From IMG/VR virus record IMGVR_UViG_3300045988_069369: DNA of 40,915 nucleotides; one strand, written 5' to 3'. Below, piece after piece: positions 16,475 to 40,161 of this stretch. Positions within the stretch are counted from its first letter, which is position 1; each line of letters opens with the position of its first letter. The DNA comes from a virus. Made by a program: the position numbers and the translations under genes. The notes beneath the pieces were generated by a model. That model did no database searches. It saw only the letters and a list, made by a program, of their open reading frames with translations, and was not told the DNA's origin.

Positions 16475-16649
16475 TTTCTAATTCCTCCCATGCTAGTCTT
16501 GTGTCACCCTAAATTTCCAGCGCATGCATAGAGCCACGAGAACGGACGTCTCACGCCCTCTAGTCTCTATTTAATGTAATTCTATTCAGGACTTAACAAG
16601 CCACGCTAGTGATGTTTATTTGGCTTATTTAACGACCAGCCAAGTCAAC

Positions 16650-16722
16650 GGGGAAAAGCAGGATTCGAACCTGCGCCTACAGATTAAAAGTCTGCCGCAT
16701 TAACCTCTTTGCTACGTTCCCC
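16650..16722 (-). tRNA. tRNA-Lys (anticodon UUU)
   Basis: The minus strand reads GGGAACG-UA-GCAA-AGAGGUUAA-UGC-G-GCAGA-CUUUUAA-UCUGU-AGGC-GCAGG-UUCGAAU-CCUGC-UUUUCCC-C. The cloverleaf has U8, G18G19, U33, A37 and a GTTCGAATC T-loop. The acceptor stem has one C-U mismatch and one G-U. No CCA is encoded. Confidence 0.75.
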
Positions 16723-21288: not shown

Positions 21289-21699
21289 TCATGGCTCTAA
21301 AAAAATATCAATTTCTTCAGTTGCATGCTTGCGCAGACGATAATAAGTTGATTGGCTGATTCCTAAATGCTCCATAATTTCCTCTGGGTATTGTTTTAGA
21401 ATGTACGTCATGCGTAAAATAGCTCGCTCTTTTGGATTAGATACCTTGTTGATTAATCTACTTAATTCAAGCTTGCGATTAATAATGTCGTTCGTGTCAT
21501 GTTCGATTGACTCTTTTAAAACAATAAGCTGTGCGTATACATCGTCGACTTTTGTCGGTTTCCCGCCTTTAATTTTGTCAGTAGACCATTTGGGACTAGA
21601 TAATAATCCAGCTTCAAGCGTTCTAACTTCGTCGATTCTGCTCTGGATATCTGTGTCTAAGTTTTGTAATTCGTCAAGTAATTGTGATGCCTTGCTCAT
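21289..21699 (-). CDS. Late-gene transcriptional activator (sigma-70 region-4-like HTH; RinA/ArpU/Alt-type)
   Basis: 136-aa track ORF immediately upstream of the packaging genes. The C-terminal ERAILRMTYILKQYPEEIMEHLGISQSTYYRLRKHA is a sigma r4-type HTH. Confidence 0.65.
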   Translation of the reverse strand: MSKASQLLDELQNLDTDIQSRIDEVRTLEAGLLSSPKWSTDKIKGGKPTKVDDVYAQLIVLKESIEHDTNDIINRKLELSRLINKVSNPKERAILRMTYILKQYPEEIMEHLGISQSTYYRLRKHATEEIDIFLEP

Positions 21700-21742
21700 T
21701 TCTAGCTTCCTCGTGGTATAATAATATTAACGAATTTATCCC

Positions 21743-21775
21743 ACAAAAGCCTTGCGTGAGCTGGGCTTTTTTTGT
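21743..21775. terminator. Bidirectional-looking hairpin with flanking A and T runs, at the end of the tRNA-like region
   Basis: The plus strand reads caaaAGCCttGCgtgaGCtGGGCTTTTTTTgtgtttt. The minus-strand version is followed only by TTTTG. Confidence 0.4.
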
Positions 21776-21958
21776 GTTTTGAAACTAGCGATAATTTCAA
21801 ATCACAATTAAAAGAAAATAATATCAAAGTACCTCTTTTCTGTTTTTAATTTCGCTATGTTTTGCCAATAAGTAACCCAATAACCCTATCAGCTGTGTAC
21901 TAATTTTTGTAAGAAGAAGTGGTTCATACCACCTCTATTCATATTTTATTTTGGGTTA

Positions 21959-22038
21959 TAGAGAGGGAGGGATTCGAACCCTCAAAGCTTTACGCTCCCT
22001 GATTTCAGGTAACCATCTTCCAATTCTGAGACCTCTCT
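21959..22038 (-). tRNA. tRNA-like element / probable pseudo-tRNA (80 nt, type-II-like) with a non-canonical anticodon arm
   Basis: The minus strand reads AGAGAGG-UC-UCA-GAAUUGGAAGA-UGG-...-GAGC-GUAAA-GCUU-U-GAGGG-UUCGAAU-CCCUC-CCUCUCU-A. It has a perfect 7-bp acceptor stem, a canonical T arm, a D loop with GG and a long variable arm. The anticodon region, however, only forms CCUG/CAGG around a 4-nt loop (AAAU), or a 7-nt loop GAAAUCA lacking U33. Confidence 0.5.
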
Positions 22039-22041
22039 GAA

Positions 22042-22087
22042 TGTCCGCGCGTGGATTCGAACCACGCTTTAAGCCATCCCTACGGAC
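22042..22087 (-). ncRNA. Truncated tRNA-like element (46 nt: acceptor stem plus T arm, no D or anticodon arms)
   Basis: The minus strand reads GUCCGUA-GGGAUGGCUUAAAG-CGUGG-UUCGAAU-CCACG-CGCGGAC-A. It lies 3 nt upstream of the 80-nt element. Confidence 0.45.
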
Positions 22088-22190
22088 ACCGAGTTTATTT
22101 TATTAGTAGAAAAGGTAGGTGCTAGATTGCTCAGCTAGCTAAGCAATCATCATAGCCCTGCTTTCTGTTTAGTTTTAAATGCTAGCCTTA

Positions 22191-22222
22191 TACCCACGAG
22201 CCGAATCGAACGGCTCTAAGTA
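22191..22222 (-). ncRNA. tRNA-type minihelix (T arm stacked on a 6-bp stem)
   Basis: The minus strand reads UACUUA-GAGCCG-UUCGAUU-CGGCUC-g-UGGGUA. No matching 5' acceptor or D/anticodon arms lie upstream. Confidence 0.4.
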
Positions 22223-22235
22223 CCATTGTGAGTCA

Positions 22236-22403
22236 TTAAGCTTTATAAAGTACCAGTGCCTTGTAACCATAAACACCATTTTGAGTTGTATCTGAAACAA
22301 CTGAAACGCTAATAATTTCATGAAACTCTGCAAATTCATTTATGTCCAGTTTTAGATTAGACATAGTTTTTCCCATAAACATTGCTACTCTGTTCCTATT
22401 CAT
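22236..22403 (-). CDS. Small hypothetical protein (55 aa), below the track cut-off
   Basis: Own translation: MNRNRVAMFMGKTMSNLKLDINEFAEFHEIISVSVVSDTTQNGVYGYKALVLYKA. AGGAG lies 8 nt upstream of the ATG at 22403. Confidence 0.5.
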   Translation of the reverse strand: MNRNRVAMFMGKTMSNLKLDINEFAEFHEIISVSVVSDTTQNGVYGYKALVLYKA

Positions 22404-22405
22404 AT

Positions 22406-22591
22406 TTATTCTCCTAATTCAATTTCCACCATACCATCATTATAAATGCTAATTTCTGCAACAGTGCTTTTTAGTACTTCTGGTGGAATATAACTTTCAC
22501 CAAAATCAAACTTTTCTTTTTCTGCTGTGAAGATATAAATTGGTGTATCTTCTGTCCAAATTAAATCAATAATGTCTCTTAATTCAATCAT
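22406..22591 (-). CDS. Hypothetical protein (61 aa), paralog of 28530..28730
   Basis: Track ORF. Both paralogs start MIELRDIIDL and share F(D/E)(F/Y)GE...I.I..D....I.L. Confidence 0.6.
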   Translation of the reverse strand: MIELRDIIDLIWTEDTPIYIFTAEKEKFDFGESYIPPEVLKSTVAEISIYNDGMVEIELGE

Positions 22592-22622
22592 TTGTTTTTT
22601 CCTTTATTTATTTTATATATTT

Positions 22623-22651
22623 ATTATATATAATATTTTGTACTTTGTCAA
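22623..22651 (-). promoter_or_regulatory. Consensus sigma-A promoter TTGACA-N17-TATAAT
   Basis: The minus strand reads TTGACAaagtacaaaatattataTATAAT. The -35 is at 22651-22646 and the -10 at 22628-22623. Confidence 0.8.
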
Positions 22652-22691
22652 CACTTTTTTCATTTTTTTATAAAATAATTTATTTTACACA

Positions 22692-22722
22692 TAAATAAAA
22701 AAGAGCTAACTTTTGTTAGCAC
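22692..22722 (-). terminator. Intrinsic terminator after the M/S methyltransferase pair
   Basis: The minus strand reads GCTAAC-AAAA-GTTAGC followed by TCTTTTTTATTT. Confidence 0.8.
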
Positions 22723-23167: not shown

Positions 23168-24441
23168 TAAAACAATGTAAGCTGGTCTTCGTCAGCATTC
23201 CTTTCTTTTTGTTTATCCGTGTTAATAATTGTCGCAAACATTTCTTTCTCTCTGTTCATTTTTCCAATGTTGCTTTTGTCTGTCGGTACTAATTCAGAAA
23301 ACATATCCAGTAATTTTTCTTCAGCTTCTGAAATCTCTTTTTTAACTTGCAGCCATTCACTAAATACCTGTTCTAAATCTACTGGGTCTTCTGGCACATA
23401 AGTATCAACATAGCGAGGAATATTTAAATTAAAATCATTTTCTTTTATCTCACTCAGTGAACAAAGATAAGCGAATCTATCTACAGATTTGCGGATATTG
23501 TATACGTCTACAATTCGTTCAATATTAGCTTGTTCTAAAATATTTTGCTTCCCGCCTTTTTTGAACTCATCACTTGCATCTATAAACAAGACATCACTTG
23601 TATTGCGTTCTTTTTTTAAATTTAAAATGACAGTTGGAATAGATGTATTAAGAAATAATTTTTCTGGCAACCCTATCACAGAATTAATGACACTGTCTTC
23701 CAAAAGGTGCTCTCTGATTTTCCCTTCTTTCGCCCCTCTAAACAATACTCCGTGTGGCAAAATTTCAAACAGATTTCCGCTTGGTTTTAAAAGCGATAAA
23801 GCATGTAAGACGAAAGCGAAGTCAGCTTTCGAAGCTGGTGCTAAACCGTATTTTTCAAACCTTTCACCATTGGTAGGATTCCATTTTAGCGAATATGGAG
23901 GATTTGATATAACAGTATCAAAAAGAATTTCGTTGTTTGGACTTTCAGCTATTTGAATTTCGCTAAAGTTTTTTGATCGCTTCAGCTTGTATACCGTGAA
24001 AACTTCTTGTGTAAGGCTATCACCATGAATAACTTCACCATCTACATTCATTAATACTAAGTTTAAAAGCAAAAATGGAATTGGCTGAGCAGAGAACTCT
24101 TCGCACCTTGCAAACTCAACTTCTGGATGCGCTTTTAGAAACGCAACGGTAAGAGAACCTGTTCCAGAACATACGTCTGCAAGATTTTTAGTGTTACCAG
24201 AAAGTTTTGCTAGTAAGTTTGAAAGCCCATCTGGAGTATAATCTTGTTTCAATTCTTTTCGATTAGATTGTTCTTCTTGAAACATATCTCGAAAGATATC
24301 AATAACTTTATCATCCTTTTTTTCATTTATTAATTGTAAAATGTGTTCTCGTGAATCTGGGTTGAGCAAAGCATTTAGTAATTTTTTAGGAATTTCAGAA
24401 GTCTCTCTACATTTTAAAATTTCTTTTAATAATTCTCTCAT
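23167..24441 (-). CDS. hsdM: N6-adenine DNA methyltransferase, type I HsdM-like (orphan; no R subunit in the genome)
   Basis: Track ORF trimmed to the ATG at 24441, which sits behind AAAGAGGTGG and overlaps the upstream stop as ATGA. AdoMet motif DVCSGTGSL and catalytic motif NPPY (VISNPPYSLKW) are present. Confidence 0.85.
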   Translation of the reverse strand: MRELLKEILKCRETSEIPKKLLNALLNPDSREHILQLINEKKDDKVIDIFRDMFQEEQSNRKELKQDYTPDGLSNLLAKLSGNTKNLADVCSGTGSLTVAFLKAHPEVEFARCEEFSAQPIPFLLLNLVLMNVDGEVIHGDSLTQEVFTVYKLKRSKNFSEIQIAESPNNEILFDTVISNPPYSLKWNPTNGERFEKYGLAPASKADFAFVLHALSLLKPSGNLFEILPHGVLFRGAKEGKIREHLLEDSVINSVIGLPEKLFLNTSIPTVILNLKKERNTSDVLFIDASDEFKKGGKQNILEQANIERIVDVYNIRKSVDRFAYLCSLSEIKENDFNLNIPRYVDTYVPEDPVDLEQVFSEWLQVKKEISEAEEKLLDMFSELVPTDKSNIGKMNREKEMFATIINTDKQKERNADEDQLTLF

Positions 24442-24965
24442 TCTTCCACCTCTTTCGCAAACGGCCACAAACGCTCATCAGTCTCTTTAATTTCTTGTTC
24501 GGTTAGTTTAGTATTATAAATAGCCTTGTCAAAAAAACCAGAAACATCTTTGAATGGTAACATCTTATACTGAATATTAAGCCCTCTTGTAATTTTAGTA
24601 AGAATAGCATCTGCTATCTCAACCGTATACAGTTTATCTGGTTCAATCTCTACAGCATTAGCGCCATTTACAATCAATGTTACAAGTGCAAGTGCATTTA
24701 ATTCTGCTTGTCTTTTGTTTTCTGAATTTAACCAATCATATACTTTTAATGGTTGGTTTCCGCAATCAAACCACTCGTCAAAATCGAAACAGCACTCCCT
24801 TGAATCATCAACCCACTCACCCACAAATTTCGGAACAACCACTTTCTGCGGTGCGTATATCTGATTGATTATATGTCTTGCGACATCTAAACCCACAACT
24901 AAATCATTATTCCCAATGTTTAATGAATTACTTTCTATTTTTTCAATCGCTTCTTGTTTATTCAT
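24438..24965 (-). CDS. DUF1642-like phage protein, paralog 1 of 5
   Basis: Track ORF. The N-terminus is MNKQEAIEKIE and the C-terminus LTEQEIKETDERLWPFAKEVEE. Confidence 0.7.
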   Translation of the reverse strand: MNKQEAIEKIESNSLNIGNNDLVVGLDVARHIINQIYAPQKVVVPKFVGEWVDDSRECCFDFDEWFDCGNQPLKVYDWLNSENKRQAELNALALVTLIVNGANAVEIEPDKLYTVEIADAILTKITRGLNIQYKMLPFKDVSGFFDKAIYNTKLTEQEIKETDERLWPFAKEVEE

Positions 24966-25013
24966 TCTTCCACCTCATTAATTTCATGGTTATCATTGCC
25001 CTAATGTTGGTTG

Positions 25014-25229
25014 TTATTCCAGTTCAACTACTACACGAAGCCACACACCAAACTCATTTCCATCAATGCTTACTTCAGCGCTGTGTACATAATCACCATA
25101 AAAATCATCAATGTCGGTTTTTTCAAGATTATATTTTGTACCTGCCTTTTCAATGATAATTGCAGCATCAGTTCCTTCACAATCACAAAATGCATGATTT
25201 TCCAAATAATCTTCAAGAGTTACGTTCAT
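25014..25229 (-). CDS. Hypothetical protein (71 aa)
   Basis: Track ORF trimmed to the ATG at 25229 (MNVTLEDY...), which overlaps the HNH stop as ATGA behind AAAGAGGTG. Confidence 0.55.
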   Translation of the reverse strand: MNVTLEDYLENHAFCDCEGTDAAIIIEKAGTKYNLEKTDIDDFYGDYVHSAEVSIDGNEFGVWLRVVVELE

Positions 25230-25765
25230 TCTTTCACCTCTTTTGCAAACTGCCATACTTCATATTTCTTTGTTTCTCCGCCGTCTCTAACAACTCCACA
25301 TGCCCAAGTTTGTGCTTTGTTAAAGTAATATGATGCTTGAGTCATACTTTCAAACTCTAATATCTCATCTGTTTCCTTTATTTTTACAAAACATTTCTTC
25401 TTATTACTTTCTGTAGCTTTAGTTTTTCTTGGTCTTAATCCAAGTTTATAAGCATGTTTCAAATTCTCACTTCGTGTTACCCACTCCAAATTTTTGGGGT
25501 GATTATTTGTCTTATCTCCATCTATATGATTAACTTCTATATAGTTGTGTGGGTTTTGGCAAAAATATTTAGCAACCAAAGAATGTGCTTGATAGGTTTT
25601 TCTTTTTCCGCTAGAAATTGATGTTAAAGTAACCCAACAATAACCCTTATTTCTGTGGACGCTTTGCTTTAATATTTTACCGTTTCTATTGTTTCTAAAT
25701 CTTCCAAAACTGGAAACTGAATAATTAGGAGAATCTTCTATAACTTTCCAAATTTCTTCCATCAT
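25226..25765 (-). CDS. HNH homing endonuclease (NUMOD4 plus HNH_3-type), with a C-terminal tail borrowed from a DUF1642 gene
   Basis: Track ORF trimmed to the ATG at 25765. It contains EIWKVIEDSPNYSVSSFGRFRN and NHIDGDKTNNHPKNLEWVTRSEN, and it ends ...YEVWQFAKEVKE like the paralog family. Confidence 0.8.
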   Translation of the reverse strand: MMEEIWKVIEDSPNYSVSSFGRFRNNRNGKILKQSVHRNKGYCWVTLTSISSGKRKTYQAHSLVAKYFCQNPHNYIEVNHIDGDKTNNHPKNLEWVTRSENLKHAYKLGLRPRKTKATESNKKKCFVKIKETDEILEFESMTQASYYFNKAQTWACGVVRDGGETKKYEVWQFAKEVKE

Positions 25766-25766
25766 T

Positions 25767-26306
25767 TTACTCCACTTCTTTCGCCCATCTAAATGCCCAT
25801 TCAAAATCTTCCTTGATTTCAGCTTCGGTGAGCTGGTTCTTGTTATATTCTTTCCAATCGTCAGCGAAATCGATTGACGTGCAACTAATCCAGTTATACA
25901 CCTCTACTTTCCCACTTGCATTTTTTCCGAGGTATGTTCTGCTATATTCATCACCATTCGGATTCGGTATTTCAACTGTATACAATTTTTCTTTCTCAAT
26001 TTCATAGCCATATAACCAAGCTTTTGCAAATAATTCACTATTATTACCCTTAAAACGCCAAAATGTCAATCTGTCGTCCATATCAGCATACGCACCATGT
26101 AGAGCATAAAATTTCTCATACTTACAATATTCAATATATTCCGCAACAAATTGTGGTACTACGACTTTTTTCTGTTCGTGGATTTGGGAGATAATACCTA
26201 ATACCTTGTTCTTATCAACCATGTCAATTCGTTGATGTGATACTGTATCGTTTATTTTAAGTGTACCTAAATTTTTAATTAGTTCAATTGCTTCTTGTTT
26301 ATTCAT
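25767..26306 (-). CDS. DUF1642-like phage protein, paralog 2
   Basis: Track ORF trimmed to MNKQEAIELIKN. It ends LTEAEIKEDFEWAFRWAKEVE. Confidence 0.7.
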   Translation of the reverse strand: MNKQEAIELIKNLGTLKINDTVSHQRIDMVDKNKVLGIISQIHEQKKVVVPQFVAEYIEYCKYEKFYALHGAYADMDDRLTFWRFKGNNSELFAKAWLYGYEIEKEKLYTVEIPNPNGDEYSRTYLGKNASGKVEVYNWISCTSIDFADDWKEYNKNQLTEAEIKEDFEWAFRWAKEVE

Positions 26307-26857
26307 TCTTTCACCTCTTTCGCCCATCTAAATGCCCACTCAAAATCTTTCTTGATTTCAGCTTCTGTCAATTGAGTATAATCTGATTCTTTCCAATTAA
26401 CATTTTCAGAGCTGATAAGTTTAATTTCTCCTATTGCATTCCGTGTAAGGATAATATGGTAGTAACCACCATTGTTTGGTAGTTCAACAGTATACAACTT
26501 ATCTTTGTTAACTTCATATCCGTAAAGATTCATCTTAGCAAGAGTCTCAATTGGCTTATTATCATCACAGTCGAACCAATATTTTATCTTACCTTCCAGA
26601 TTACAAGTATAAAGATTTACACAAAGATCGTATACTCCAACTTCAAAATCATCTTTGATTGATTCATAGAAGTCTGCAACGAATTGTGGAACAACTGGTT
26701 TTTCTGGTTCATCAATTTGTTCAACAACTTTGATAGAATCTTTAAGTCCTTCGCATAATCCATTTTTATGACCCTTACCCCAGTTATTTGGAGCATATGT
26801 ATTTTCAGCCTGATTTTTCTTACAGTGGAGTTTTTTAATTGCTTCTTTTTTATTCAT
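26303..26857 (-). CDS. DUF1642-like phage protein, paralog 3
   Basis: Track ORF trimmed to MNKKEAIKKL. It ends LTEAEIKKDFEWAFRWAKEVKE. Confidence 0.7.
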   Translation of the reverse strand: MNKKEAIKKLHCKKNQAENTYAPNNWGKGHKNGLCEGLKDSIKVVEQIDEPEKPVVPQFVADFYESIKDDFEVGVYDLCVNLYTCNLEGKIKYWFDCDDNKPIETLAKMNLYGYEVNKDKLYTVELPNNGGYYHIILTRNAIGEIKLISSENVNWKESDYTQLTEAEIKKDFEWAFRWAKEVKE

Positions 26858-27396
26858 TTTATAACCTCTTTCGCAAATTGCCACAAACGTTCATCCTTCT
26901 GTTTGATTTCTTGCTCTGTGAGCAAGTGCACTTTCCCGTATCTTATTTTATCTGCAAAATTAAACAAAAGTTTCCCTTCTTTACTCTTCCATAATTGAAT
27001 AAATCCATTTCTCCCATCATCTGGAATAGCTACCACATACTGTTGCTCATGCTCAACTTCATATCCGAAAAGTTTCATTTTCACAAGCGTCTCTATACAT
27101 TTGTTATTATCATCATTAAACCATCCATGCAAACCTGCACACAATTTCTGTTCACGGAAGTCTATACAAAGCTTGTATAAGTTATATTCGAGGTCTCCTT
27201 TATTTTCTTCATACCAATCCGCCACAAATTGATGGACTACAGGCTTTTCTGGCTCATTAAGAAAGCAAGAATTACATAAAGCGTTGCCTTTTGCTTCTTC
27301 AAAGCCTGCTTCATAAGCCTCGTTAAGAGTTATAGCAGTAAAGAATTTTGGAGGTTTCATATTTTTTATCGTTTGTTGAAATTCTTGTTTATTCAT
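26854..27396 (-). CDS. DUF1642-like phage protein, paralog 4
   Basis: Track ORF. It starts MNKQEFQQTIKN and ends LTEQEIKQKDERLWQFAKEVIK. Confidence 0.7.
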   Translation of the reverse strand: MNKQEFQQTIKNMKPPKFFTAITLNEAYEAGFEEAKGNALCNSCFLNEPEKPVVHQFVADWYEENKGDLEYNLYKLCIDFREQKLCAGLHGWFNDDNNKCIETLVKMKLFGYEVEHEQQYVVAIPDDGRNGFIQLWKSKEGKLLFNFADKIRYGKVHLLTEQEIKQKDERLWQFAKEVIK

Positions 27397-27739
27397 TGTC
27401 AGACTCCTCTTTAATTAATTTATCTAAATAATATCTTGCTTTCTTCAAATCTTCCACACCGTTCTTCCTTTGAAAACGTAAGATATATTTAACAACATTG
27501 CACCAATAGCTTGCTGCCATCCCTTTTAATTCTTGAATGAAGGCTTCCTGAACATCAAACACTTCGAAACCTTTATCGGTTACATAATGGCTCGGACTAG
27601 TTATGTTGTTTTTTCCTTTGATTTGCAAGTGCCCTTCACCATCTCGGATAATTTGCCCGTTTGTCGTTACAAGTTTGTTGTTGACTTTTTTCATTAATTC
27701 TTGAAATATTTCATCTGCTTCTTTAAAATTATTTGTCAT
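27389..27739 (-). CDS. DUF3310-like phage protein
   Basis: Track ORF. SPSHY...NVVKYILRFQRKNGVEDLKKARYYLDKLI resembles the DUF3310 signature as I recall it. Confidence 0.6.
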   Translation of the reverse strand: MTNNFKEADEIFQELMKKVNNKLVTTNGQIIRDGEGHLQIKGKNNITSPSHYVTDKGFEVFDVQEAFIQELKGMAASYWCNVVKYILRFQRKNGVEDLKKARYYLDKLIKEESDNE

Positions 27740-27740
27740 A

Positions 27741-28466
27741 TTAATCTTCTCCTAAACTCCCTAATTCATTAATTTTTCTAATATAATATTGAGTTAACAG
27801 ACGTTTGGTTTTAGGGTCTGAAATCTTATCTTCACTGTCGTCTGTAACCTCGTCCTCTGGGAACATTGTGATTAGCCCAGAATCGATGCGATCATATAGT
27901 GTTGACCAACTGATATGAAAATAGGCCAGTGCTTGCTGTTTCGTTCCGTAAAATTCATCACCTGTTTCAGTGTTTGTGAAAGTACGTAAGCCTTTCGCGC
28001 CGATTAACGTTTTCGTTACGCTCCCCCTGCTTGTACGATTAAGCAAAGCTGATTTGGTCAAACCCCATGCATCGCAGCATTCACTAATTGAACCTTCAAA
28101 AACTTCGCCCGTCTTATTATCTTCAAAACGATAGATGTTGCGTTTTCTTTGTGCTTTCTTTTGCCATTTTAGGTTTTCAGCGCAAATGTTATCCGGATTT
28201 CCATCAACACATACTAATTTCTCGTCAGACTTTGGCTCTCCTAAAAACGCATCTGCCACAAGTTTTTTTAGTGTAAAAGTCTTGCTTTTTCCGTCTCGGA
28301 AAAATGTAACTTTTTTAGCGTTTTGTATTTTTTTCACACTCATGATTTTACTTTTTCGATGTTGCCCACGAGCATCTATACGTTCAACGCTTCGTACACG
28401 TCCTTTATTTGATACTTCGTAAAATCCTTCATAGTCTTTGACAGGTTTCCAAACCTCATTCTTCAT
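27741..28466 (-). CDS. HNH-family homing endonuclease homolog (NUMOD4 plus degenerate HNH plus two NUMOD1-like HTH repeats)
   Basis: Track ORF. It contains EVWKPVKDYEGFYEVSNKGRVRSV. The HNH position reads CVDGNPDNICAENLKW, with Val where the first His is expected. It also has repeats TGEVFEGSISECCDAWGLTKSALLNR and TGDEFYGTKQQALAYFHISWSTLYDR. Confidence 0.7.
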   Translation of the reverse strand: MKNEVWKPVKDYEGFYEVSNKGRVRSVERIDARGQHRKSKIMSVKKIQNAKKVTFFRDGKSKTFTLKKLVADAFLGEPKSDEKLVCVDGNPDNICAENLKWQKKAQRKRNIYRFEDNKTGEVFEGSISECCDAWGLTKSALLNRTSRGSVTKTLIGAKGLRTFTNTETGDEFYGTKQQALAYFHISWSTLYDRIDSGLITMFPEDEVTDDSEDKISDPKTKRLLTQYYIRKINELGSLGED

Positions 28467-28529
28467 TATTGTCTTCCTCCGTTTTATCTCACTGTCTAAA
28501 AGACGCTATCAGAAATTAGCTATTGTTTA

Positions 28530-28730
28530 TTATTTATACAAAGGTATTGTATAATTTTCGAGATAAATTTTGACCCTATCATCGTTAATATCGATTAAAT
28601 CAACGATATGTGATAGTTTGTCTGTGATGTCATCTTCACCATATTCAAACGTTTCACAATTATCAACAATAATAATTGAGTTGTTGTTTGACATATAGAA
28701 CAAATCAATAATATCTCTCAATTCAATCAT
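28530..28730 (-). CDS. Hypothetical protein (66 aa), paralog of 22406..22591
   Basis: Track ORF. Its ATG overlaps the stop of the C5-methyltransferase relic (ATGA). Confidence 0.6.
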   Translation of the reverse strand: MIELRDIIDLFYMSNNNSIIIVDNCETFEYGEDDITDKLSHIVDLIDINDDRVKIYLENYTIPLYK

Positions 28731-28894
28731 TTGTCTAACCTTTCCGCTATGATTTTAATCACGTTCACTGTCACGCTGTTTCCAGCTTGTTTATATAATT
28801 GGCTATTGCTATTCACTTCTTGCGCTTTGTCAAACGCCCAATCAGGGAAACCTTTGCAAGCGCCGATTCCTGAAAATAAATCTAAGAATTTCAC
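28727..28894 (-). pseudogene. Relic of a C5-cytosine DNA methyltransferase: motif I fused to the motif IX-X region, catalytic core deleted
   Basis: Own translation from the GTG at 28894 behind AAAGAGGT: (M)KFLDLFSGIGACKGFPDWAFDKAQEVNSNSQLYKQAGNSVTVNVIKIIAERLDK. FxDLFSGIG is motif I, and GFPD...YKQ.GNSV is the C-terminal motif region. No PC(Q) catalytic motif is present. Confidence 0.65.
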
Positions 28895-29145
28895 TATTCT
28901 ACCTCTTTATACGTTTTCTCGAAAATACTTTTGCGGCATACATAACATTCGCCAGTTTCGTTCTTGATAAGATAATCACCATCTGAGAAACGCATTTTTC
29001 CCTCAAGAGTATCAATCGAATGTCTTATTGGTCCATAGCCAAAAATAATTCTTTGCAGAAAAGCAAATTCTTCAACTTTCTTGTGATTAAACTTAGTTAC
29101 CTGAATAGCTTCAACGGGTGTTACTTTAATATATCTTTTAACCAT
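28894..29145 (-). CDS. Hypothetical protein (83 aa)
   Basis: Track ORF in a tightly packed gene string. Confidence 0.55.
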   Translation of the reverse strand: MVKRYIKVTPVEAIQVTKFNHKKVEEFAFLQRIIFGYGPIRHSIDTLEGKMRFSDGDYLIKNETGECYVCRKSIFEKTYKEVE

Positions 29146-29303
29146 TCCTTTGCCTCCGTAATTTCCAATTTGTCAAAAGTCATATCTGTCATGTAGTAAT
29201 CTTTTTCTATTGCCCTTAGTGCTTCACTAAAATCACTCGCCATGACAGTGAACCAAAATACAGGGCTGCCTTCCTCAAAACCGACTACTTGATAGCGTTT
29301 CAT
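29121..29303 (-). CDS. Hypothetical protein (60 aa)
   Basis: Track ORF with a 4-nt overlap on the upstream gene. Confidence 0.5.
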   Translation of the reverse strand: MKRYQVVGFEEGSPVFWFTVMASDFSEALRAIEKDYYMTDMTFDKLEITEAKEWLKDILK

Positions 29304-29647
29304 CGTTTTACCTCGATTTTATTTAGTTTAGCTAGTTTGTCCCACATACCGCCAGCAAGACGACTAACTTCCTTAATTTCACTAATTTGCTTTGGCTTTT
29401 CTTTATATTCCCACCATTCGCTACCGTCGTATTCGTGACGTTCAATCCACCAATTATCACCAACAACAACTAAATCATCTGCCACTTCAGCAGCGCCAAA
29501 CCCTGAATGGTATTTAGACTTCTTTGCGACTCGTTCAAAATTTTCTTTTGTAATTCCAAAATTTGCACCTTGAATATATTTAACATCATCAAAAGATTTG
29601 CCATGAATCGTTAACTCTGATATTGTTTCTTCCCATAAATTAGTCAT
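29300..29647 (-). CDS. Hypothetical protein (115 aa)
   Basis: Track ORF trimmed to the ATG at 29647 (MTNLWEET...), which lies inside the last codons of paralog 5 behind AAAGAGGTGG. Confidence 0.55.
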   Translation of the reverse strand: MTNLWEETISELTIHGKSFDDVKYIQGANFGITKENFERVAKKSKYHSGFGAAEVADDLVVVGDNWWIERHEYDGSEWWEYKEKPKQISEIKEVSRLAGGMWDKLAKLNKIEVKR

Positions 29648-30230
29648 TTTCCACCTCTTTCGCCCATCTAAACGCCCAGCCAAAATCTTTCTTGATTTCT
29701 GACTCGGTTAATTGATAAGCTTCATTATTTCTCCAATTATCATCATAGTCATAAACCCTTAACATCACAATTTGGTTAAATCCATTTTTCATAAGCACGT
29801 TGCGTTCGTTTCCGATCTTGTTCGGATTCGGTATCTCAACCGTATACAGTTTCTTTTTTTCGATTTCATAACCATAAAGAATAGCATTTGTAAGTCGTTC
29901 TTTTTCTGCATGAATTACATGAGAATAGTGTTTCAATTCAACCTCTCTGTCCTCGCGGTCATTGTCATATGAGAAACCATAGCCAAATCCAGCTCTTGTG
30001 ACGAAGTAAAGCATGCTGTACTTTGTCCAAAATGGTCTGCGTTTTTGCTCGTCTTTAAGCCCCTCAACCCATTCTGCTTCTTCTTCAGTTAACACTGGCT
30101 TTTTCTGCTCATCAAGCTTTTCAACAATGTCTAATGCGACGTCTAAAGCGTTATTACGATTTAAGTCTTCCCACGAGTTGAAAGGGCTTTTTTCTTTTTT
30201 TATTTTCTCAATTACTTCTTGTTTATTCAT
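29640..30230 (-). CDS. DUF1642-like phage protein, paralog 5
   Basis: Track ORF trimmed to MNKQEVIEKIKK. It ends LTESEIKKDFGWAFRWAKEVEND. Confidence 0.7.
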   Translation of the reverse strand: MNKQEVIEKIKKEKSPFNSWEDLNRNNALDVALDIVEKLDEQKKPVLTEEEAEWVEGLKDEQKRRPFWTKYSMLYFVTRAGFGYGFSYDNDREDREVELKHYSHVIHAEKERLTNAILYGYEIEKKKLYTVEIPNPNKIGNERNVLMKNGFNQIVMLRVYDYDDNWRNNEAYQLTESEIKKDFGWAFRWAKEVEND

Positions 30231-30385
30231 ATTTTCCCCTAATTCTTTCAAATCTGTTTTGAATTTATCTATTTCTATTTGTATTTGCCAGCTAAATCAA
30301 ATGGTTTACTATTTTCAATTCGTCGTAAACCGCCTTCTCGTTGTCTCTATGGCGTTTTAGAATGTTTCAAATGTAATTATACTAG

Positions 30386-35534: not shown

Positions 35535-35717
35535 TTAGATTGCATCATCTGGCAAACCGTGCATGCGATTGTATGCAATTTGTTTTTCTTCCCAAGGTAA
35601 ACGTTTTGAATACACGCGCTTTGTTTCTTCTTTCTTTCTCGCTCTCTTGCCTACAAATGGCAATATAAGCACATACATGATTGCTATTAAACTAAAATAA
35701 ATAATAAATGAATCCAT
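35535..35717 (-). CDS. Small membrane protein (60 aa)
   Basis: Track ORF. N-terminal TM FIIYFSLIAIMYVLILPFV, then a basic stretch. Confidence 0.5.
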   Translation of the reverse strand: MDSFIIYFSLIAIMYVLILPFVGKRARKKEETKRVYSKRLPWEEKQIAYNRMHGLPDDAI

Positions 35718-36022
35718 TTTTTTCCTTCTTTCTAGTCTTACCGAAAGCTACCTTTCGTGTTATAATGTAATTATGTTTTTTGGTAAGCGCATTGTTTCTG
35801 CAATGGGCTTTTTTTGTGCCATCAATTAGCAGTTAAAGCCCTAACAAGGTTGTCAATTATTGTAGCTTTATGAAAAATCATTGTTTAGAGTTGGTTAATA
35901 ACTGCGTTTTTATCTATTTTAAAGGAGGTTATCTCCTTGTTAGAGCCATAGCTGCTAATCGATGACGTGTTACCGGCTCAGCTGGAAGTGCTAATTTTAA
36001 TTAAAGTTAACGTGCTAATGAA

Positions 36023-36226
36023 TTAAATTCCTAGCAAATCAAAAGTTGAAACGTGATAAGTTGAGCACAATTTAATCAAATTGCTAGTTGAGATTGTGTA
36101 TATGTTCTTTTCCCACAAAGCAACAGTTTGAGTGCTTACGCCTAGAGATTCGCCAAATTCTTTTTGAGTTAGTCCTTCTCTTGCTCGAATTACTCGAATT
36201 GATGTGTTTGGTCTTAGAATTTCCAT
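36023..36226 (-). CDS. Cro/XRE-type HTH regulator
   Basis: Track ORF. REGLTQKEFGESLGVSTQTVALWEKN is a classic XRE HTH. Confidence 0.8.
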   Translation of the reverse strand: MEILRPNTSIRVIRAREGLTQKEFGESLGVSTQTVALWEKNIYTISTSNLIKLCSTYHVSTFDLLGI

Positions 36227-39316: not shown

Positions 39317-39346
39317 TTATCACAAATTTAAAACAACTAACTAAAT
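39317..39346 (-). repeat. 3' arm of the 30-bp closing helix
   Basis: Minus-strand RNA AUUUAGUUAGUUGUUUUAAAUUUGUGAUAA pairs with the 5' arm through 27 Watson-Crick and 3 G-U pairs. Confidence 0.85.
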
Positions 39347-39862
39347 GAGCCTTCGCTCTGCTTCAAATATATGCAACTTATTAGCTGATAGTCGTCTTAG
39401 GTCTGAGCTACGAGGAGCTACCTCATAACTTCCTAAGAGGTTCAATGACTAGACAGGACTGGTTACCTTCAACGTTCACCCAACATTCAGAAACGTAAAT
39501 ATGTGACAATATCTCCAATTTATCACTTGCGCTTTTGGGCTACTTGTACAATTTTTTGGTGTAAGCAACGAGCTTTTAACTCGTCAATGCGCACAATGGC
39601 TTATTTTGACAACTTCCTACTTGCTTCAAGTGGTCAAGTTTGGGCTTGCAGGATTATTTCTCACAGAGACGTCTATTATCGCCACCACCGTTTAAACTTA
39701 GCCTAGTTACACATATCCTCCACGTCACACGCACTCTTGCTATTCTTTCACTTCGCAACAATCAAAGATTGATTACTTATCTAACGACAGTATCCCACCG
39801 TTAGCGTAACGAGCTATTAAGCGTATAACTTTAGCATGCTGTCAAACAATCTTCACTAAATT

Positions 39863-39892
39863 ATTTAGTTAGCTGTTTTAAACTTGCGATAA
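39863..39892 (-). repeat. 5' arm of the 30-bp closing helix
   Basis: Minus-strand RNA UUAUCGCAAGUUUAAAACAGCUAACUAAAU. The arms differ at 3 positions, each a G in this arm opposite a U in the other. Confidence 0.85.
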
Positions 39893-40001: not shown

Positions 40002-40161
40002 AGCATGGCTGGATAATCCTCCAGCGGGGTTAACGATTAGAGAGGAATGACTTCTCTAACTCCTCATTGTGCTTCTTAGGCTTATCGCCGAGGAACAGTT
40101 TTTAAGCTCTACCAAGCCACATAACGTGCTTCAATTATGCGTCCGTATTACTACGAATCCA
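39955..40161 (-). ncRNA. Candidate small non-coding RNA (about 200 nt) between the endolysin terminator and the large unit
   Basis: The promoter TTGACA-N18-TAGAAT lies at 40197-40168. No ORF is present. Hairpins include UCGUA-GUAA-UACGG (GNRA loop), UUAGAGA...UCUCUAA and GCUGGA-GGAUUA-UCCAGC, followed by tandem terminators. Confidence 0.4.

What the first reader, a model, noticed from the sequence alone, without database searches (positions are those of the whole stretch)
21959..22222. Cluster of three non-canonical tRNA-like elements (anticodon-less 80-mer, 46-nt armless form, 32-nt T-arm minihelix) inside a 0.5-kb non-coding stretch
All three elements carry a textbook T arm (G-UUCGAAU-C or UUCGAUU) stacked on an acceptor-like stem, but none is a normal tRNA.

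1. 22038-21959 has a perfect 7-bp acceptor stem, a D loop with GG, a long variable arm and a T arm. Its anticodon arm collapses to CCUG/CAGG with a 4-nt loop, so there is no U33 and no readable anticodon.
2. 22087-22042, only 3 nt upstream, has an acceptor stem and a T arm joined by a 14-nt linker, with no D or anticodon arms.
3. 22222-22191 is a bare acceptor/T-arm minihelix.

They sit in a transcription unit driven by a perfect consensus promoter at 22651-22623. A long-range TAACCCAA/TTGGGTTA pairing (21958-21951 with 21880-21873) and a terminator-like hairpin at 21775-21743 lie downstream.

They may be decayed tRNA genes. Acceptor/T-arm mimics could also act as decoys or substrates for tRNA-directed enzymes such as the CCA-adding enzyme, RNase P, or host anticodon-nuclease defences. 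That last idea is speculation.
Basis: partly seen in the sequence, partly recalled or inferred. Interest (0 to 1): 0.65.

Follow-up and report, generated by a model that had tools for sequence, protein, structure and literature searches.

The report
Phage array of tRNA top-half mimics
A Streptococcus phage carries, just before its late genes, a conserved string of small RNA elements that copy only the upper half of a tRNA and cannot read codons; they are kept by selection rather than being dead tRNA genes, and most likely work as cutting marks (or decoys) for the host's tRNA-processing enzymes.

Summary
The three elements are real and far beyond chance. All three belong to conserved families in Streptococcus phages.

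- **Armless form (E2, E3).** There are 48 distinct copies. Each has a 6-bp acceptor stem and a 6-bp T stem, and 11 of these 12 pairs show compensatory changes. The T loop is UUCRANU, the linker always contains GG, base 73 is almost always A, and the next base is always U.
- **E3 revised.** Family covariation gives a 43-nt armless form at 22233-22191, not a bare 32-nt hairpin.
- **80-mer (E1).** It is a long-variable-arm tRNA look-alike found in 115 viral contigs. Its "anticodon" hairpin always has a 4- or 6-nt loop, never 7.
- **Context.** The elements sit in a modular, structured 0.54-kb non-coding RNA. Each is followed by a short segment that pairs with the loop of a downstream hairpin.
- **Pseudogene reading rejected.** The odd features are conserved, not randomly decayed.
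- **Best reading (inferred, untested).** These are non-decoding tRNA top-half mimics matured by RNase P, RNase Z and the CCA-adding enzyme. Cleavage would cut a polycistronic non-coding RNA into stable pieces. A decoy role against tRNA-targeting defences remains open.
- **Prior description.** No Rfam family matches, and the paper searches found no description.

The parts
22623..22651 (-). Sigma-70 consensus promoter (TTGACA-17-TATAAT). It lies just downstream of an intrinsic terminator at 22720-22705.
   Evidence: 12/12 match. The terminator is listed in the same call.
22236..22591 (-). Two small ORFs co-oriented with the RNA region: 61 aa (22591-22406) and 55 aa (22403-22236). The 55-aa ORF is weakly Cse60-like.
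   Evidence: The 55-aa ORF, ending ...ALVLYKA, precedes the first minihelix in several relatives.
22191..22233 (-). E3, an armless tRNA-like element. 5' acceptor strand ACUCAC 22233-22228; linker AAUGGUACUUA 22227-22217; T stem and loop 22216-22198 (GAGCCG-UUCGAUU-CGGCUC); 3' acceptor strand GUGGGU 22197-22192; discriminator A 22191.
Evidence: Covariance model R1 scores it 57.5 bits.
22091..22190 (-). Spacer module C. After UA, segment s1 GGCUAGC (22187-22181) pairs with the apical part of hairpin 22148-22125 (GCUAGCU, 22139-22133). The conserved strands GAAAGCAGGGCUAUGAUG and CUAGCACCUACCUUUUCUA form the basal helices.
   Evidence: Covarying s1/loop pairs in relatives: GGCUAGG/CCUAGCC, GACUAGC/GCUAGUC, GGCUAGAAA/UUUCUAGUC, GACUAGGAAG/UUUCCUAGUC.
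22042..22087 (-). E2, an armless tRNA-like element. Acceptor GUCCGU/GCGGAC; 14-nt linker with GGGAUGG; T arm GCGUGG-UUCGAAU-CCACGC; discriminator A 22042. Only UUC separates it from E1.
   Evidence: R1 scores it 50.4 bits. Near-identical copies occur in L003, L010, L011, L014 and L017.
21959..22038 (-). E1, an 80-nt tRNA look-alike with a long variable arm and a 4-nt loop in place of the anticodon loop.
   Evidence: Rfam tRNA model 28.2 bits. R2 family of 48 distinct copies. It is 80/80 identical to Javan288. Some GenBank records label relatives tRNA-OTHER or tRNA-Tyr.
21783..21958 (-). Spacer module F. Segment s1 UAACCCAA (21958-21951) pairs with UUGGGUUA (21880-21873) in the loop of hairpin 21893-21864, forming a pseudoknot. 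It also contains a small hairpin (21936-21915), the conserved ACAAAAAUUAGUAC (21910-21897), and the helix UAGCGA (21857-21852) with UCGCUA (21791-21786).
   Evidence: There are five covarying duplex variants. The Watson-Crick duplex with the sequence's own partner averages 8.1 bp, against 5.1 bp with a partner from another class.
21743..21775 (-). An A-run followed by a GC hairpin and a short U-run. It may be a weak or bidirectional terminator closing the unit. A TATTATAC box and a ribosome-binding site follow it.
   Evidence: Fold. Not called by the terminator scan. An analogous element is conserved in relatives.
21289..21699 (-). Downstream gene encoding a DUF1492 protein, a putative late-gene regulator, followed by terS and terL.
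   Evidence: PF07374 at 133 bits. ORF layout.

Best explanation
E1, E2 and E3 are functional, non-decoding tRNA mimics. They are modules of a roughly 0.54-kb structured non-coding RNA. That RNA is transcribed with two small ORFs from the consensus promoter, at the end of the early region and just upstream of the late-regulator and terminase genes.

Selection keeps what tRNA end-processing enzymes read:
- a 12-bp acceptor/T-arm stack capped by a T loop;
- a GG that can dock on the T loop;
- a purine at position 73 followed by U;
- no encoded CCA.

The proposed mechanism is that host RNase P cuts at the 5' side of each element, RNase Z cuts after base 73, and the CCA-adding enzyme finishes the 3' end. 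This would punctuate the precursor into mini-tRNA-like RNAs and spacer RNAs (modules C and F).

The new 5' end of each spacer would begin 2-3 nt before a segment that pairs with a downstream hairpin loop. That would shield it from 5' exonuclease.

**Shown:** the structures, their conservation and covariation, their strand, modularity and genomic context.
**Inferred:** recognition by RNase P, RNase Z and the CCA-adding enzyme, the cleavage events, and protection of the 5' ends.
**Unknown:** what the released RNAs do.
For: **Armless family.**
- Training set plus loci: 28 hits, 27 distinct. 96.3% of cells are paired and 11/12 pairs show double changes. Covariation is 0.949 against 0.258 in shuffles and at most 0.21 in slid controls.
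- Loci found by unrelated criteria: 40 further hits, 28 distinct. 99.4% of cells are paired and 11/12 pairs are compensatory. Covariation is 0.730 against 0.227.
- Among 48 distinct copies: discriminator A in 44, +1 = U in 48/48, never CCA, GG in the linker in 48/48, T loop UUCRANU in 47/48.

**Three grades share only the 12-bp stack and T loop.**
- The 80-mer.
- The armless form.
- A linkerless 12-bp hairpin (for example GGCUGCAGGUGG-UUCGAAU-CCAUUUGCAGUC) in at least eight loci.

**Match to host tRNA processing.**
- All tRNA genes of Streptococcaceae lack CCA. RNase Z cuts them right after the discriminator, leaving a trailer that starts with U (PMC8549757).
- B. subtilis CCA-less precursors have U74 and A75, and RNase P acts on them first (PMC1874595).

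**Orientation and position.**
- All 21 hits in loci oriented by the DUF1492 gene are on the gene strand, 260-620 nt upstream of it.
- Elements abut ORF stops and starts and each other. E2 and E1 are 3 nt apart.

**Trailer pseudoknot.** Each element is followed by A/G-U-A/U-A and then a 6-10-nt segment. That segment pairs with a downstream hairpin loop and covaries, in four spacer classes.

**Transcription unit.** There is a consensus promoter upstream and a hairpin at the end. In pneumococcal and mitis phages the 80-mer cluster lies between a promoter-like site and a clear intrinsic terminator.
Against: - There are no expression or end-mapping data, and every enzymatic step is inferred.
- E1 keeps a complete D arm, a variable arm and an invariant 28-nt 5' half. 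That is more than processing needs and hints at another partner.
- In most pneumococcal copies pair 1:72 is mismatched (28 of 48 distinct sequences).
- The array is dispensable and turns over fast. A phage with 99% identical flanks has a different set. One relative has none (L147). Copy number ranges from 0 to 5. This fits an accessory or arms-race role at least as well as housekeeping punctuation.
- The pseudoknot that starts 2-3 nt after base 73 could hinder RNase Z rather than follow it.
- The spacer RNAs have no identified target.
Confidence: 0.5

Rival explanations
1. RNA decoys or sponges. After maturation the mini-tRNAs, and the anticodon-less 80-mer, would soak up a host anti-phage effector or another tRNA-binding factor. 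The target would recognise the tRNA body or acceptor end, for example an acceptor-end-modifying toxin or a tRNA nuclease. Because they cannot decode, they would protect host tRNAs without disturbing translation.
For: - Several independent lineages of tRNA-shaped but non-decoding RNAs exist in Streptococcus phages.
- Most pneumococcal phages carry the 80-mer and no true tRNA.
- Cassettes are gained and lost quickly between near-identical phages, and homing endonucleases are associated with the locus.
- The window also carries a true tRNA-Lys(UUU).
- Phage tRNAs are known to counter tRNA-cleaving defences (PMC11555353, PMC12445682).
Against: - Known phage countermeasures replace the cleaved tRNA with a decodable one. 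No RNA decoy of this kind has been described.
- Most known tRNA nucleases read the anticodon arm, which is missing here.
- No cognate defence system has been identified, and nothing was tested.
- This reading does not explain the conserved structured spacers.
Confidence: 0.2
2. A cis-acting leader or 3'-UTR device. The array, with module F, would control read-through, stability or translation of the downstream late regulator (DUF1492) or of the upstream mRNA. RNase P/Z cleavage or the pseudoknots would act as the switch.
For: - Module F always comes last. It is always followed by an A-run hairpin, a TATTATA box, a ribosome-binding site and a regulator or HNH gene.
- The spacers contain Shine-Dalgarno-like purine tracts paired to anti-SD-like strands.
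- In bovis-group phages the array lies upstream of DUF1492. In pneumococcal phages it lies between the regulator and terS.
Against: - In pneumococcal and mitis phages the cluster is bracketed by its own promoter-like site and a strong terminator, so it forms a separate unit.
- Gene neighbours vary: methylase, HNH, several regulator families.
- The array can be absent (L147).
Confidence: 0.12
3. Decayed tRNA genes (pseudogenes) left in a phage tRNA slot, with no function.
For: - True tRNAs (Phe, Lys, Ser) occupy the neighbouring slot in more distant relatives.
- A few copies are visibly broken, such as the T arm and acceptor strand in L056, the truncated copy in L010, and the interrupted copy in L157.
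- Array content varies.
Against: - The non-canonical architecture itself is conserved and maintained by compensatory changes.
- GG, the T loop, A73 and U+1 are invariant.
- The 80-mer is found in 115 viral contigs and in prophage-like contigs from about eight Streptococcus species or lineages, always with a 4- or 6-nt loop.
Confidence: 0.04
4. A DNA-level element: a recombination or integration site, a homing-endonuclease target, or a replication or packaging signal that merely resembles tRNA.
For: - Cassette boundaries coincide with element ends, and E1 is inserted precisely at an ..A-U| junction.
- An HNH gene is inserted inside a T loop in L157.
- tRNA gene fragments are known by-products of integration (bioRxiv 10.1101/2022.07.05.498093, listed).
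Against: - Stems tolerate G-U pairs that would be A-C on the other strand, and all copies share the gene strand.
- Both acceptor strands are present and covary, unlike the 3'-half fragments left at att sites.
- The pseudoknots covary as RNA.
Confidence: 0.05
5. Unusual decoding tRNAs, for example doublet or frameshift readers with 6-nt loops.
For: ARAGORN reads a two-base anticodon in one related family. Some 80-mers have 6-nt loops.
Against: - Loop length switches between 4 and 6 nt within one family, and the window copy has 4 nt.
- The armless and linkerless forms have no anticodon arm at all.
Confidence: 0.02

Closest known systems
tRNA-like 't-elements' of plant mitochondrial transcripts, and the mitochondrial tRNA punctuation model (from my own knowledge)
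   Same: Acceptor/T-arm mimics without decoding capacity sit inside longer transcripts. RNase P and RNase Z are thought to read them to create the ends of the flanking RNAs.
   Different: Those are organellar and lie next to mRNAs. Here the setting is a bacteriophage, the elements form arrays with structured non-coding spacers, and each element has a trailing pseudoknot. Processing has not been shown here.
MALAT1/mascRNA tRNA-like element (PMC8457004) and the MHV68 tRNA-miRNA (TMER) units (the latter from my own knowledge)
   Same: A tRNA-like module cut by RNase P and RNase Z releases a small CCA-tailed RNA and defines the end of a neighbouring non-coding RNA. Leader-trailer pairing influences the cut.
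   Different: Those are eukaryotic or herpesviral and keep a cloverleaf-like fold. The phage elements are reduced to a 12-bp stack with a 10-14-nt linker, or none. They are tandemly arrayed.
RNase P-processed phage regulatory RNAs: the P1/P7 C4 antisense RNA and the P4 CI RNA (from my own knowledge)
   Same: A phage small RNA is matured by a host tRNA-processing enzyme through a tRNA-like fold in the precursor.
   Different: There is no sequence or architectural similarity. Those are single regulatory RNAs with known targets and they lack T-loop minihelices.
tmRNA tRNA-like domain
   Same: An acceptor stem and a T arm are joined by a reduced D-loop analogue, with no anticodon arm.
   Different: There is no G3:U70 alanine identity pair (0 of 55 rows), no tag reading frame and no pseudoknot series. 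ARAGORN and Rfam find no tmRNA.
Bacterial Y RNA (YrlA) tRNA-like module (PMC4201824)
   Same: A non-decoding tRNA mimic with a T arm and acceptor-like stem, found in bacteria and some phages.
   Different: There is no Rfam YrlA match even at E <= 10. No Ro/Rsr gene was found among the 20 window ORFs of the 21.3-37.1 kb stretch that were screened against Pfam. There is no long Ro-binding terminal stem.
Canonical phage tRNAs used against tRNA-cleaving defences (PMC11555353, PMC12445682)
   Same: They are phage-encoded, expressed from strong promoters, tRNA-derived, and clustered near homing endonucleases.
   Different: Those tRNAs decode and replace cleaved host tRNAs. E1, E2 and E3 cannot decode.
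Armless mitochondrial tRNAs of nematodes and mites (PMC7803006)
   Same: They are of similar size, about 42-54 nt, and have lost arms.
   Different: They keep the anticodon arm and lose the D and/or T arms. The phage elements do the opposite.

Membership tests
Canonical tRNA (Rfam RF00005) | Score at or above the family's gathering threshold, or detection by a tRNA finder | tested here: not met
   E1 scores 28.2 bits against a threshold of 29. E2 and E3 are not reported even at E <= 10. ARAGORN finds only tRNA-Lys in the window.
Canonical tRNA (Rfam RF00005) | A 7-nt anticodon loop with U33 on a 5-bp stem | tested here: not met
   E1 has CCUG-AAAU-CAGG. Loops are 4 or 6 nt in all 42 family variants. 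E2 and E3 have no anticodon arm.
Canonical tRNA (Rfam RF00005) | A 12-bp acceptor/T stack, a T loop of the form UUCRANY, and G18G19 | tested here: met
   All three elements have these features. They are conserved and covary across the families.
tmRNA | A tRNA-like domain with G3:U70, plus a tag-peptide reading frame and pseudoknots | tested here: not met
   ARAGORN and Rfam are negative. Pair 3:70 is C-G, U-A or U-G and never G-U.
YrlA / bacterial Y RNA | A match to the Rfam model and linkage to an rsr (Ro) gene | tested here: not met
   No match at E <= 10. No Ro-like domain among the 20 window ORFs screened.
tRNA gene fragment from site-specific integration (att site) | Only the 3' part of a tRNA gene, identical to a host tRNA and lying next to an integrase | tested here: not met
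   Both acceptor strands are present and covary. The position is between the early genes and terminase. No integrase was seen among the 20 ORFs screened, and the whole window was not screened. Identity to a host tRNA was not tested.
RNase P / RNase Z substrate (tRNA-like processing element) | A coaxial acceptor/T stack of about 12 bp with a T loop, a single-stranded 5' leader, and no CCA after base 73 (for RNase Z) | tested here: met
   The geometry and flanks are conserved: +1 = U in 48/48 and never CCA.
RNase P / RNase Z substrate (tRNA-like processing element) | Actual cleavage at the predicted sites, followed by CCA addition | not testable with these tools
   This needs end-mapping RNA-seq or in vitro assays.
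Leucine tRNA derivative (origin of E1) | A long variable arm, a D loop of the form GAAUUGGUAGA, and A73 | tested here: inconclusive
   The variable arm is present and covaries. The window copy has A73 but pneumococcal copies do not. The only weak BLAST matches are of the T-arm half, to phage genes annotated tRNA-Leu or tRNA-Ser. One record calls a relative tRNA-Tyr. The D-loop resemblance to tRNA-Leu is from memory.
Intrinsic terminator (for hairpin 21775-21743) | A GC-rich stem followed by a U tract | tested here: inconclusive
   The hairpin is in the fold, but the scan does not call it. Relatives often lack the U tract.

The most novel reading that the evidence does not exclude
The arrays may be an RNA-based counter-defence. 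In this reading, Streptococcus phages mass-produce CCA-tailed tRNA top halves and an anticodon-less full-shape mimic. These would act as non-decoding decoys that titrate host immune effectors, or other factors, that recognise the tRNA body or acceptor end. The structured spacers would be co-released partner RNAs. Homing endonucleases would shuffle the cassettes between phages.
Probability: 0.15. Interest if true: 0.85.

Novelty: new variant of a known kind. Interest (0 to 1): 0.65.

Why it matters
- tRNA-like processing signals are known from organelles, mammalian long non-coding RNAs and a herpesvirus. A conserved, arrayed family of tRNA top-half mimics with trailing pseudoknots has not been described in bacteriophages as far as I could find. 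Rfam has no model for it, and eight of the nine full-text searches looked for such a description and found none (the ninth was on RNase Z).
- The result explains the "tRNA-OTHER" annotations in pneumococcal prophages.
- It defines at least four new RNA motifs: the armless minihelix, the 80-mer, module C and module F. All four have covariation support.
- It gives a testable case of phage transcripts being punctuated by host RNase P and RNase Z.
- If the products turn out to be decoys, this would be a new class of RNA-based anti-defence. The hosts include S. pneumoniae, the S. bovis group and dairy S. thermophilus.

Tried and rejected
**Searches that found nothing**
- Rfam at a permissive threshold over 21600-22700 gave nothing credible besides the sub-threshold tRNA hit. 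The C/D-box, HSUR and sX4 hits are chance matches.
- Looking for in-window antisense targets of the conserved single-stranded motifs of module F found none above chance.
- BLAST of E1 against E. coli genomes, meant to anchor it to tRNA-Leu, gave no match.
- Pfam screening of 20 window ORFs for tRNA-related enzymes (CCA-adding enzyme, ligase, Ro) found none.
- Eight of the nine literature searches looked for a prior description and found none. One search was on RNase Z.
- Pellegrini et al. 2003 (PMC202377) on RNase Z could not be read.

**Ideas considered and dropped**
- Mini-ORFs in module C (AUGAUG after an SD-like tract). Frames and lengths are not conserved (MMIA*, MMAVS*, 16 aa, 23 aa), so this was rejected.
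- The 12-aa and 41-aa ORFs in module F are likewise not conserved.
- A k-turn or C/D-box reading of AUGAUGA...CUGA. The CUGA is not conserved, so this was rejected.
It is the minimum-energy fold of the single sequence but has no covariation support.
- The tRNA-like element as the 5' UTR of terS in pneumococcal phages. This is weakened by an intrinsic terminator between the cluster and terS.

**Weak or limited tests**
- A generic test of trailer-to-downstream complementarity is only slightly above shuffled controls (7.8 against 7.0 nt). The support comes from class-specific covariation instead.
- RNAalifold cannot represent the pseudoknot. It recovered only hairpin P3 and the invariant UAGCGA/UCGCUA helix.
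Full report
**What the window is.** It is a Streptococcus siphophage genome read on the minus strand. The order is ROOL and Bacilli-1 RNAs, replication genes, an orphan N6 methylase with a half-HsdS, the finding region, a DUF1492 regulator, terS/terL, then head and tail genes. BLAST of the 541-nt region against 50,697 phage records hits 69 records, all of them Streptococcus phages. None covers 80% of the query. Different sub-segments match different phage groups, so the region is a mosaic of modules.

**Checking the observation.** The sequence shows the three elements as described.
- The T-loop word GTTCGAWTC occurs four times in the window. Three are in this region and one is in the real tRNA-Lys. 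All four are on the minus strand, and 0.76 are expected.
- The Rfam tRNA model scores E1 at 28.2 bits against a 29-bit threshold. It treats the anticodon arm as a 21-nt unaligned stretch.
- ARAGORN calls none of the three.
- The whole 506-nt region folds at -149.9 kcal/mol, z = -4.74.
- The promoter at 22651-22623 matches the consensus 12/12 and lies just after a terminator.
- The hairpin at 21775-21743 is in the fold but is not called a terminator.

**The armless elements are a family.**
- A structure-based scan of related loci shows a peak of elements with 10-14 nt between the 5' acceptor strand and the T stem.
- I aligned 26 of them (A1) and built covariance model R1.
- In the window R1 finds only E3 (57.5 bits) and E2 (50.4 bits) at significant scores.
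- It finds 28 copies in bovis-group phage loci. It finds only 3 in 881 kb of pneumococcal-type loci.
- It finds 40 more (28 distinct) in loci retrieved through a module-F pattern or through the DUF1492 protein.
- Pair counts are 96.3% and 99.4% of cells paired. In each set 11 of 12 pairs show changes on both sides. Covariation scores are 0.949 and 0.730, against 0.258 and 0.227 in shuffles and at most 0.21 in slid controls.
- These alignments were fitted to the model and the sequences are related. The slid controls and the variety of pair types still make chance unlikely.
- The geometry is a 6-bp acceptor stem, a 10-14-nt linker that always contains GG, and a 6-bp T stem with a UUCRANU loop. 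This gives a 12-bp stack, as in a tRNA.
- Base 73 is A in 44 of 48 copies, the next base is U in 48 of 48, and CCA never follows.
- For E3 the covarying partner of GUGGGU is ACUCAC (22233-22228).

**The 80-mer is a family too.**
- Its 5' half (28 nt) occurs in 115 IMG/VR contigs. It also occurs in 10 species-representative genome records. Nine are Streptococcus (oralis, mitis, pseudopneumoniae, vulneris, varani, henryi and others) and one is an apparently mis-binned MAG.
- GenBank records label it tRNA-OTHER or, once, tRNA-Tyr.
- There are 42 sequence variants. The hairpin in the anticodon position is always CCUG-loop-CAGG, with a loop of 4 nt (AAAU, AAAA, UAAU) or 6 nt (UAAUGU and similar).
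- Model R2 recovers it in DUF1492-anchored loci that were not selected by the pattern.
- On 48 distinct sequences the variable arm shows compensatory changes in 3 of 4 pairs, the T arm in 2 of 5, and pair 2:71 also does. The D stem and anticodon-like stem never vary. Pair 1:72 is unpaired in 28 of 48.
- U8, A14, G18G19, U54, U55, C56 and A58 are all kept.
- The window copy is 80/80 identical to that of S. macedonicus phage Javan288, although the neighbouring elements differ.
- In about 8 of 60 loci a true tRNA-Phe follows it directly. Most loci have no true tRNA.

**A third, simpler grade.** At least eight loci carry a 12-bp hairpin capped by a T loop, with no linker at all, in the slot before module F. 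ARAGORN calls one of them tRNA-Ala. What all three grades share is the 12-bp stack and the T loop.

**The surrounding RNA.**
- Each element is followed by A/G-U-A/U-A and then a 6-10-nt segment, s1. This segment is complementary to the apical loop of a hairpin 50-110 nt downstream.
- Module F duplexes are UAACCCAA/UUGGGUUA (the window), UAACCAGA/UCUGGUUA, UAACCCGA/UCGGGUUA, UAAACCAGA/UCUGGUUUA and ACCCAG/CUGGGU. All 20 sequences have at least 6 contiguous pairs. The own-partner Watson-Crick duplex averages 8.1 bp, against 5.1 bp for partners from other classes.
- Module C duplexes include GGCUAGG/CCUAGCC, GACUAGC/GCUAGUC, GGCUAGAAA/UUUCUAGUC and GACUAGGAAG/UUUCCUAGUC. Two further classes are UACACC/GGUGUA and GCCCAGAG/UUCUGGGC.
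- The hairpin that carries the module-F loop also covaries.
- Pneumococcal and mitis phages show the same logic, for example UGACUAC pairing with GUAGUCG in a hairpin loop.

**Context and dynamics.**
- All 21 armless hits in loci oriented by DUF1492 are on the gene strand, 260-620 nt upstream of that gene.
- In pneumococcal and mitis phages the cluster lies after the regulator gene and before terS. It sits between a promoter-like site and a clear intrinsic terminator.
- Copy number ranges from 0 (L147) to 5 (L014).
- A phage with 99% identical flanks (L157) differs from the window exactly between 22219 and 21958. Its first minihelix is interrupted inside the T loop by a 0.74-kb insert encoding an HNH/NUMOD4 endonuclease. 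Homology resumes at s1 of module F.

**Mechanism.**
- The conserved features are the ones that tRNA end-processing enzymes use, not the ones that decoding uses.
- All tRNA genes in Streptococcaceae lack CCA. RNase Z cuts them immediately after the discriminator, and the trailer begins with U (PMC8549757).
- In B. subtilis such precursors have U74 and A75, and RNase P acts on them first (PMC1874595).
- I therefore favour maturation by RNase P, RNase Z and the CCA-adding enzyme. This would punctuate a polycistronic non-coding RNA.
- From my own knowledge, a structure within a few nucleotides of the 5' end protects RNAs in Firmicutes from RNase J1. That would give the trailing pseudoknot a role. 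This step is inference.
- The fast turnover, the association with homing endonucleases, the extra conservation in E1 and the existence of several non-decoding tRNA-like lineages keep a decoy function alive. The two readings are compatible.

**Rejected or weak readings.**
- Pseudogenes are contradicted by covariation and by conservation of the odd features.
- A DNA-level role is contradicted by G-U pairs specific to one strand and by the RNA pseudoknots.
- Unusual decoding is contradicted by loop lengths of 4 or 6 nt and by the armless forms.
- tmRNA and YrlA membership tests failed.

**Novelty.** Rfam 15 has no matching family. Eight full-text searches for a prior description found none. The nearest analogues are tRNA-like processing elements in other systems (PMC8457004 for MALAT1; plant t-elements and MHV68 TMERs from memory). 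I rate this a new variant of a known kind, real and well supported structurally, with its function still to be tested.

Noticed in passing
window 16649-16722 (-): A genuine tRNA-Lys(UUU) sits inside the head-gene module, between the head-morphogenesis and scaffold genes. Rfam scores it 65 bits. Phage tRNA-Lys genes are known to counter anticodon nucleases such as PrrC (PMC11555353).
   Followed up: partly
window 39328-39884 (-) and 40094-40158 (-): A full-length ROOL RNA (245.7 bits) and a Bacilli-1 RNA (73.6 bits) lie on the gene strand at the start of the early region. This phage therefore carries at least three kinds of structured non-coding RNA. No minihelix lies next to ROOL.
   Followed up: partly
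L157 1484-2244 (IMGVR_UViG_3300045988_052431, 99% identical flanks to the window): The first minihelix is cut inside its T loop (...GGTACTAGCAAGGTT|) by a 0.74-kb insert. The insert carries an HNH/NUMOD4 endonuclease ORF (1553-2092). Homology to the window resumes exactly at window position 21958. Free-standing HNH genes also flank the array in Javan288, Javan220, L136 and L149. They may drive cassette exchange.
   Followed up: partly
L007 2642-2706 and 2774-2854 (Javan336), with relatives in L036, L045, L083, L118, L128-L130: S. mitis-group phages carry two further non-decoding tRNA-like families. One has an acceptor and T arm with a 30-nt insert. The other is a cloverleaf with a 4-bp stem and a 6-nt loop, called tRNA-??? 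(aa) by ARAGORN and scored 40.1 bits by Rfam.
   Followed up: partly
L204 1388-1850 (S. thermophilus Brussowvirus CHPC951, record positions 35590-36052): Dairy-phage genomes show T-arm elements in the non-coding stretch before their last gene. The same stretch has an AUAGAAAAGAGG motif, an A-run hairpin and a TATTATATCA box. The architecture may therefore extend to S. thermophilus phages. Model R1 scores the region only 23 bits.
   Followed up: partly
window 24438-30251 (-): Five paralogous DUF1642 ORFs are present: four in tandem at 24438-27396 (interrupted by one NUMOD4/HNH ORF at 25226-25804) and a fifth at 29640-30251. A second NUMOD4 ORF lies at 27741-28466. An orphan N6 DNA methylase with a half-size HsdS-like specificity ORF follows at 24468-22736.
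   Followed up: no
L001, L004, L011, L017, L144, L152, L159, L165, L167, L171, L172 (between module F and the A-run hairpin): Many relatives carry an additional conserved hairpin module, ..GCAAGGCGC...GUGCGCCUGC... The window lacks it.
   Followed up: no
window 22161-22111 and 21936-21911 (-): The 3' strands of the spacer helices (CACCUACCUUUUCUA and ACCACUUCUUCUUAC) resemble the 16S rRNA anti-Shine-Dalgarno tail as I remember it. They are paired to SD-like purine tracts (GAAAGCAGGG and AGAGGUGG). The meaning is unknown.
   Followed up: no
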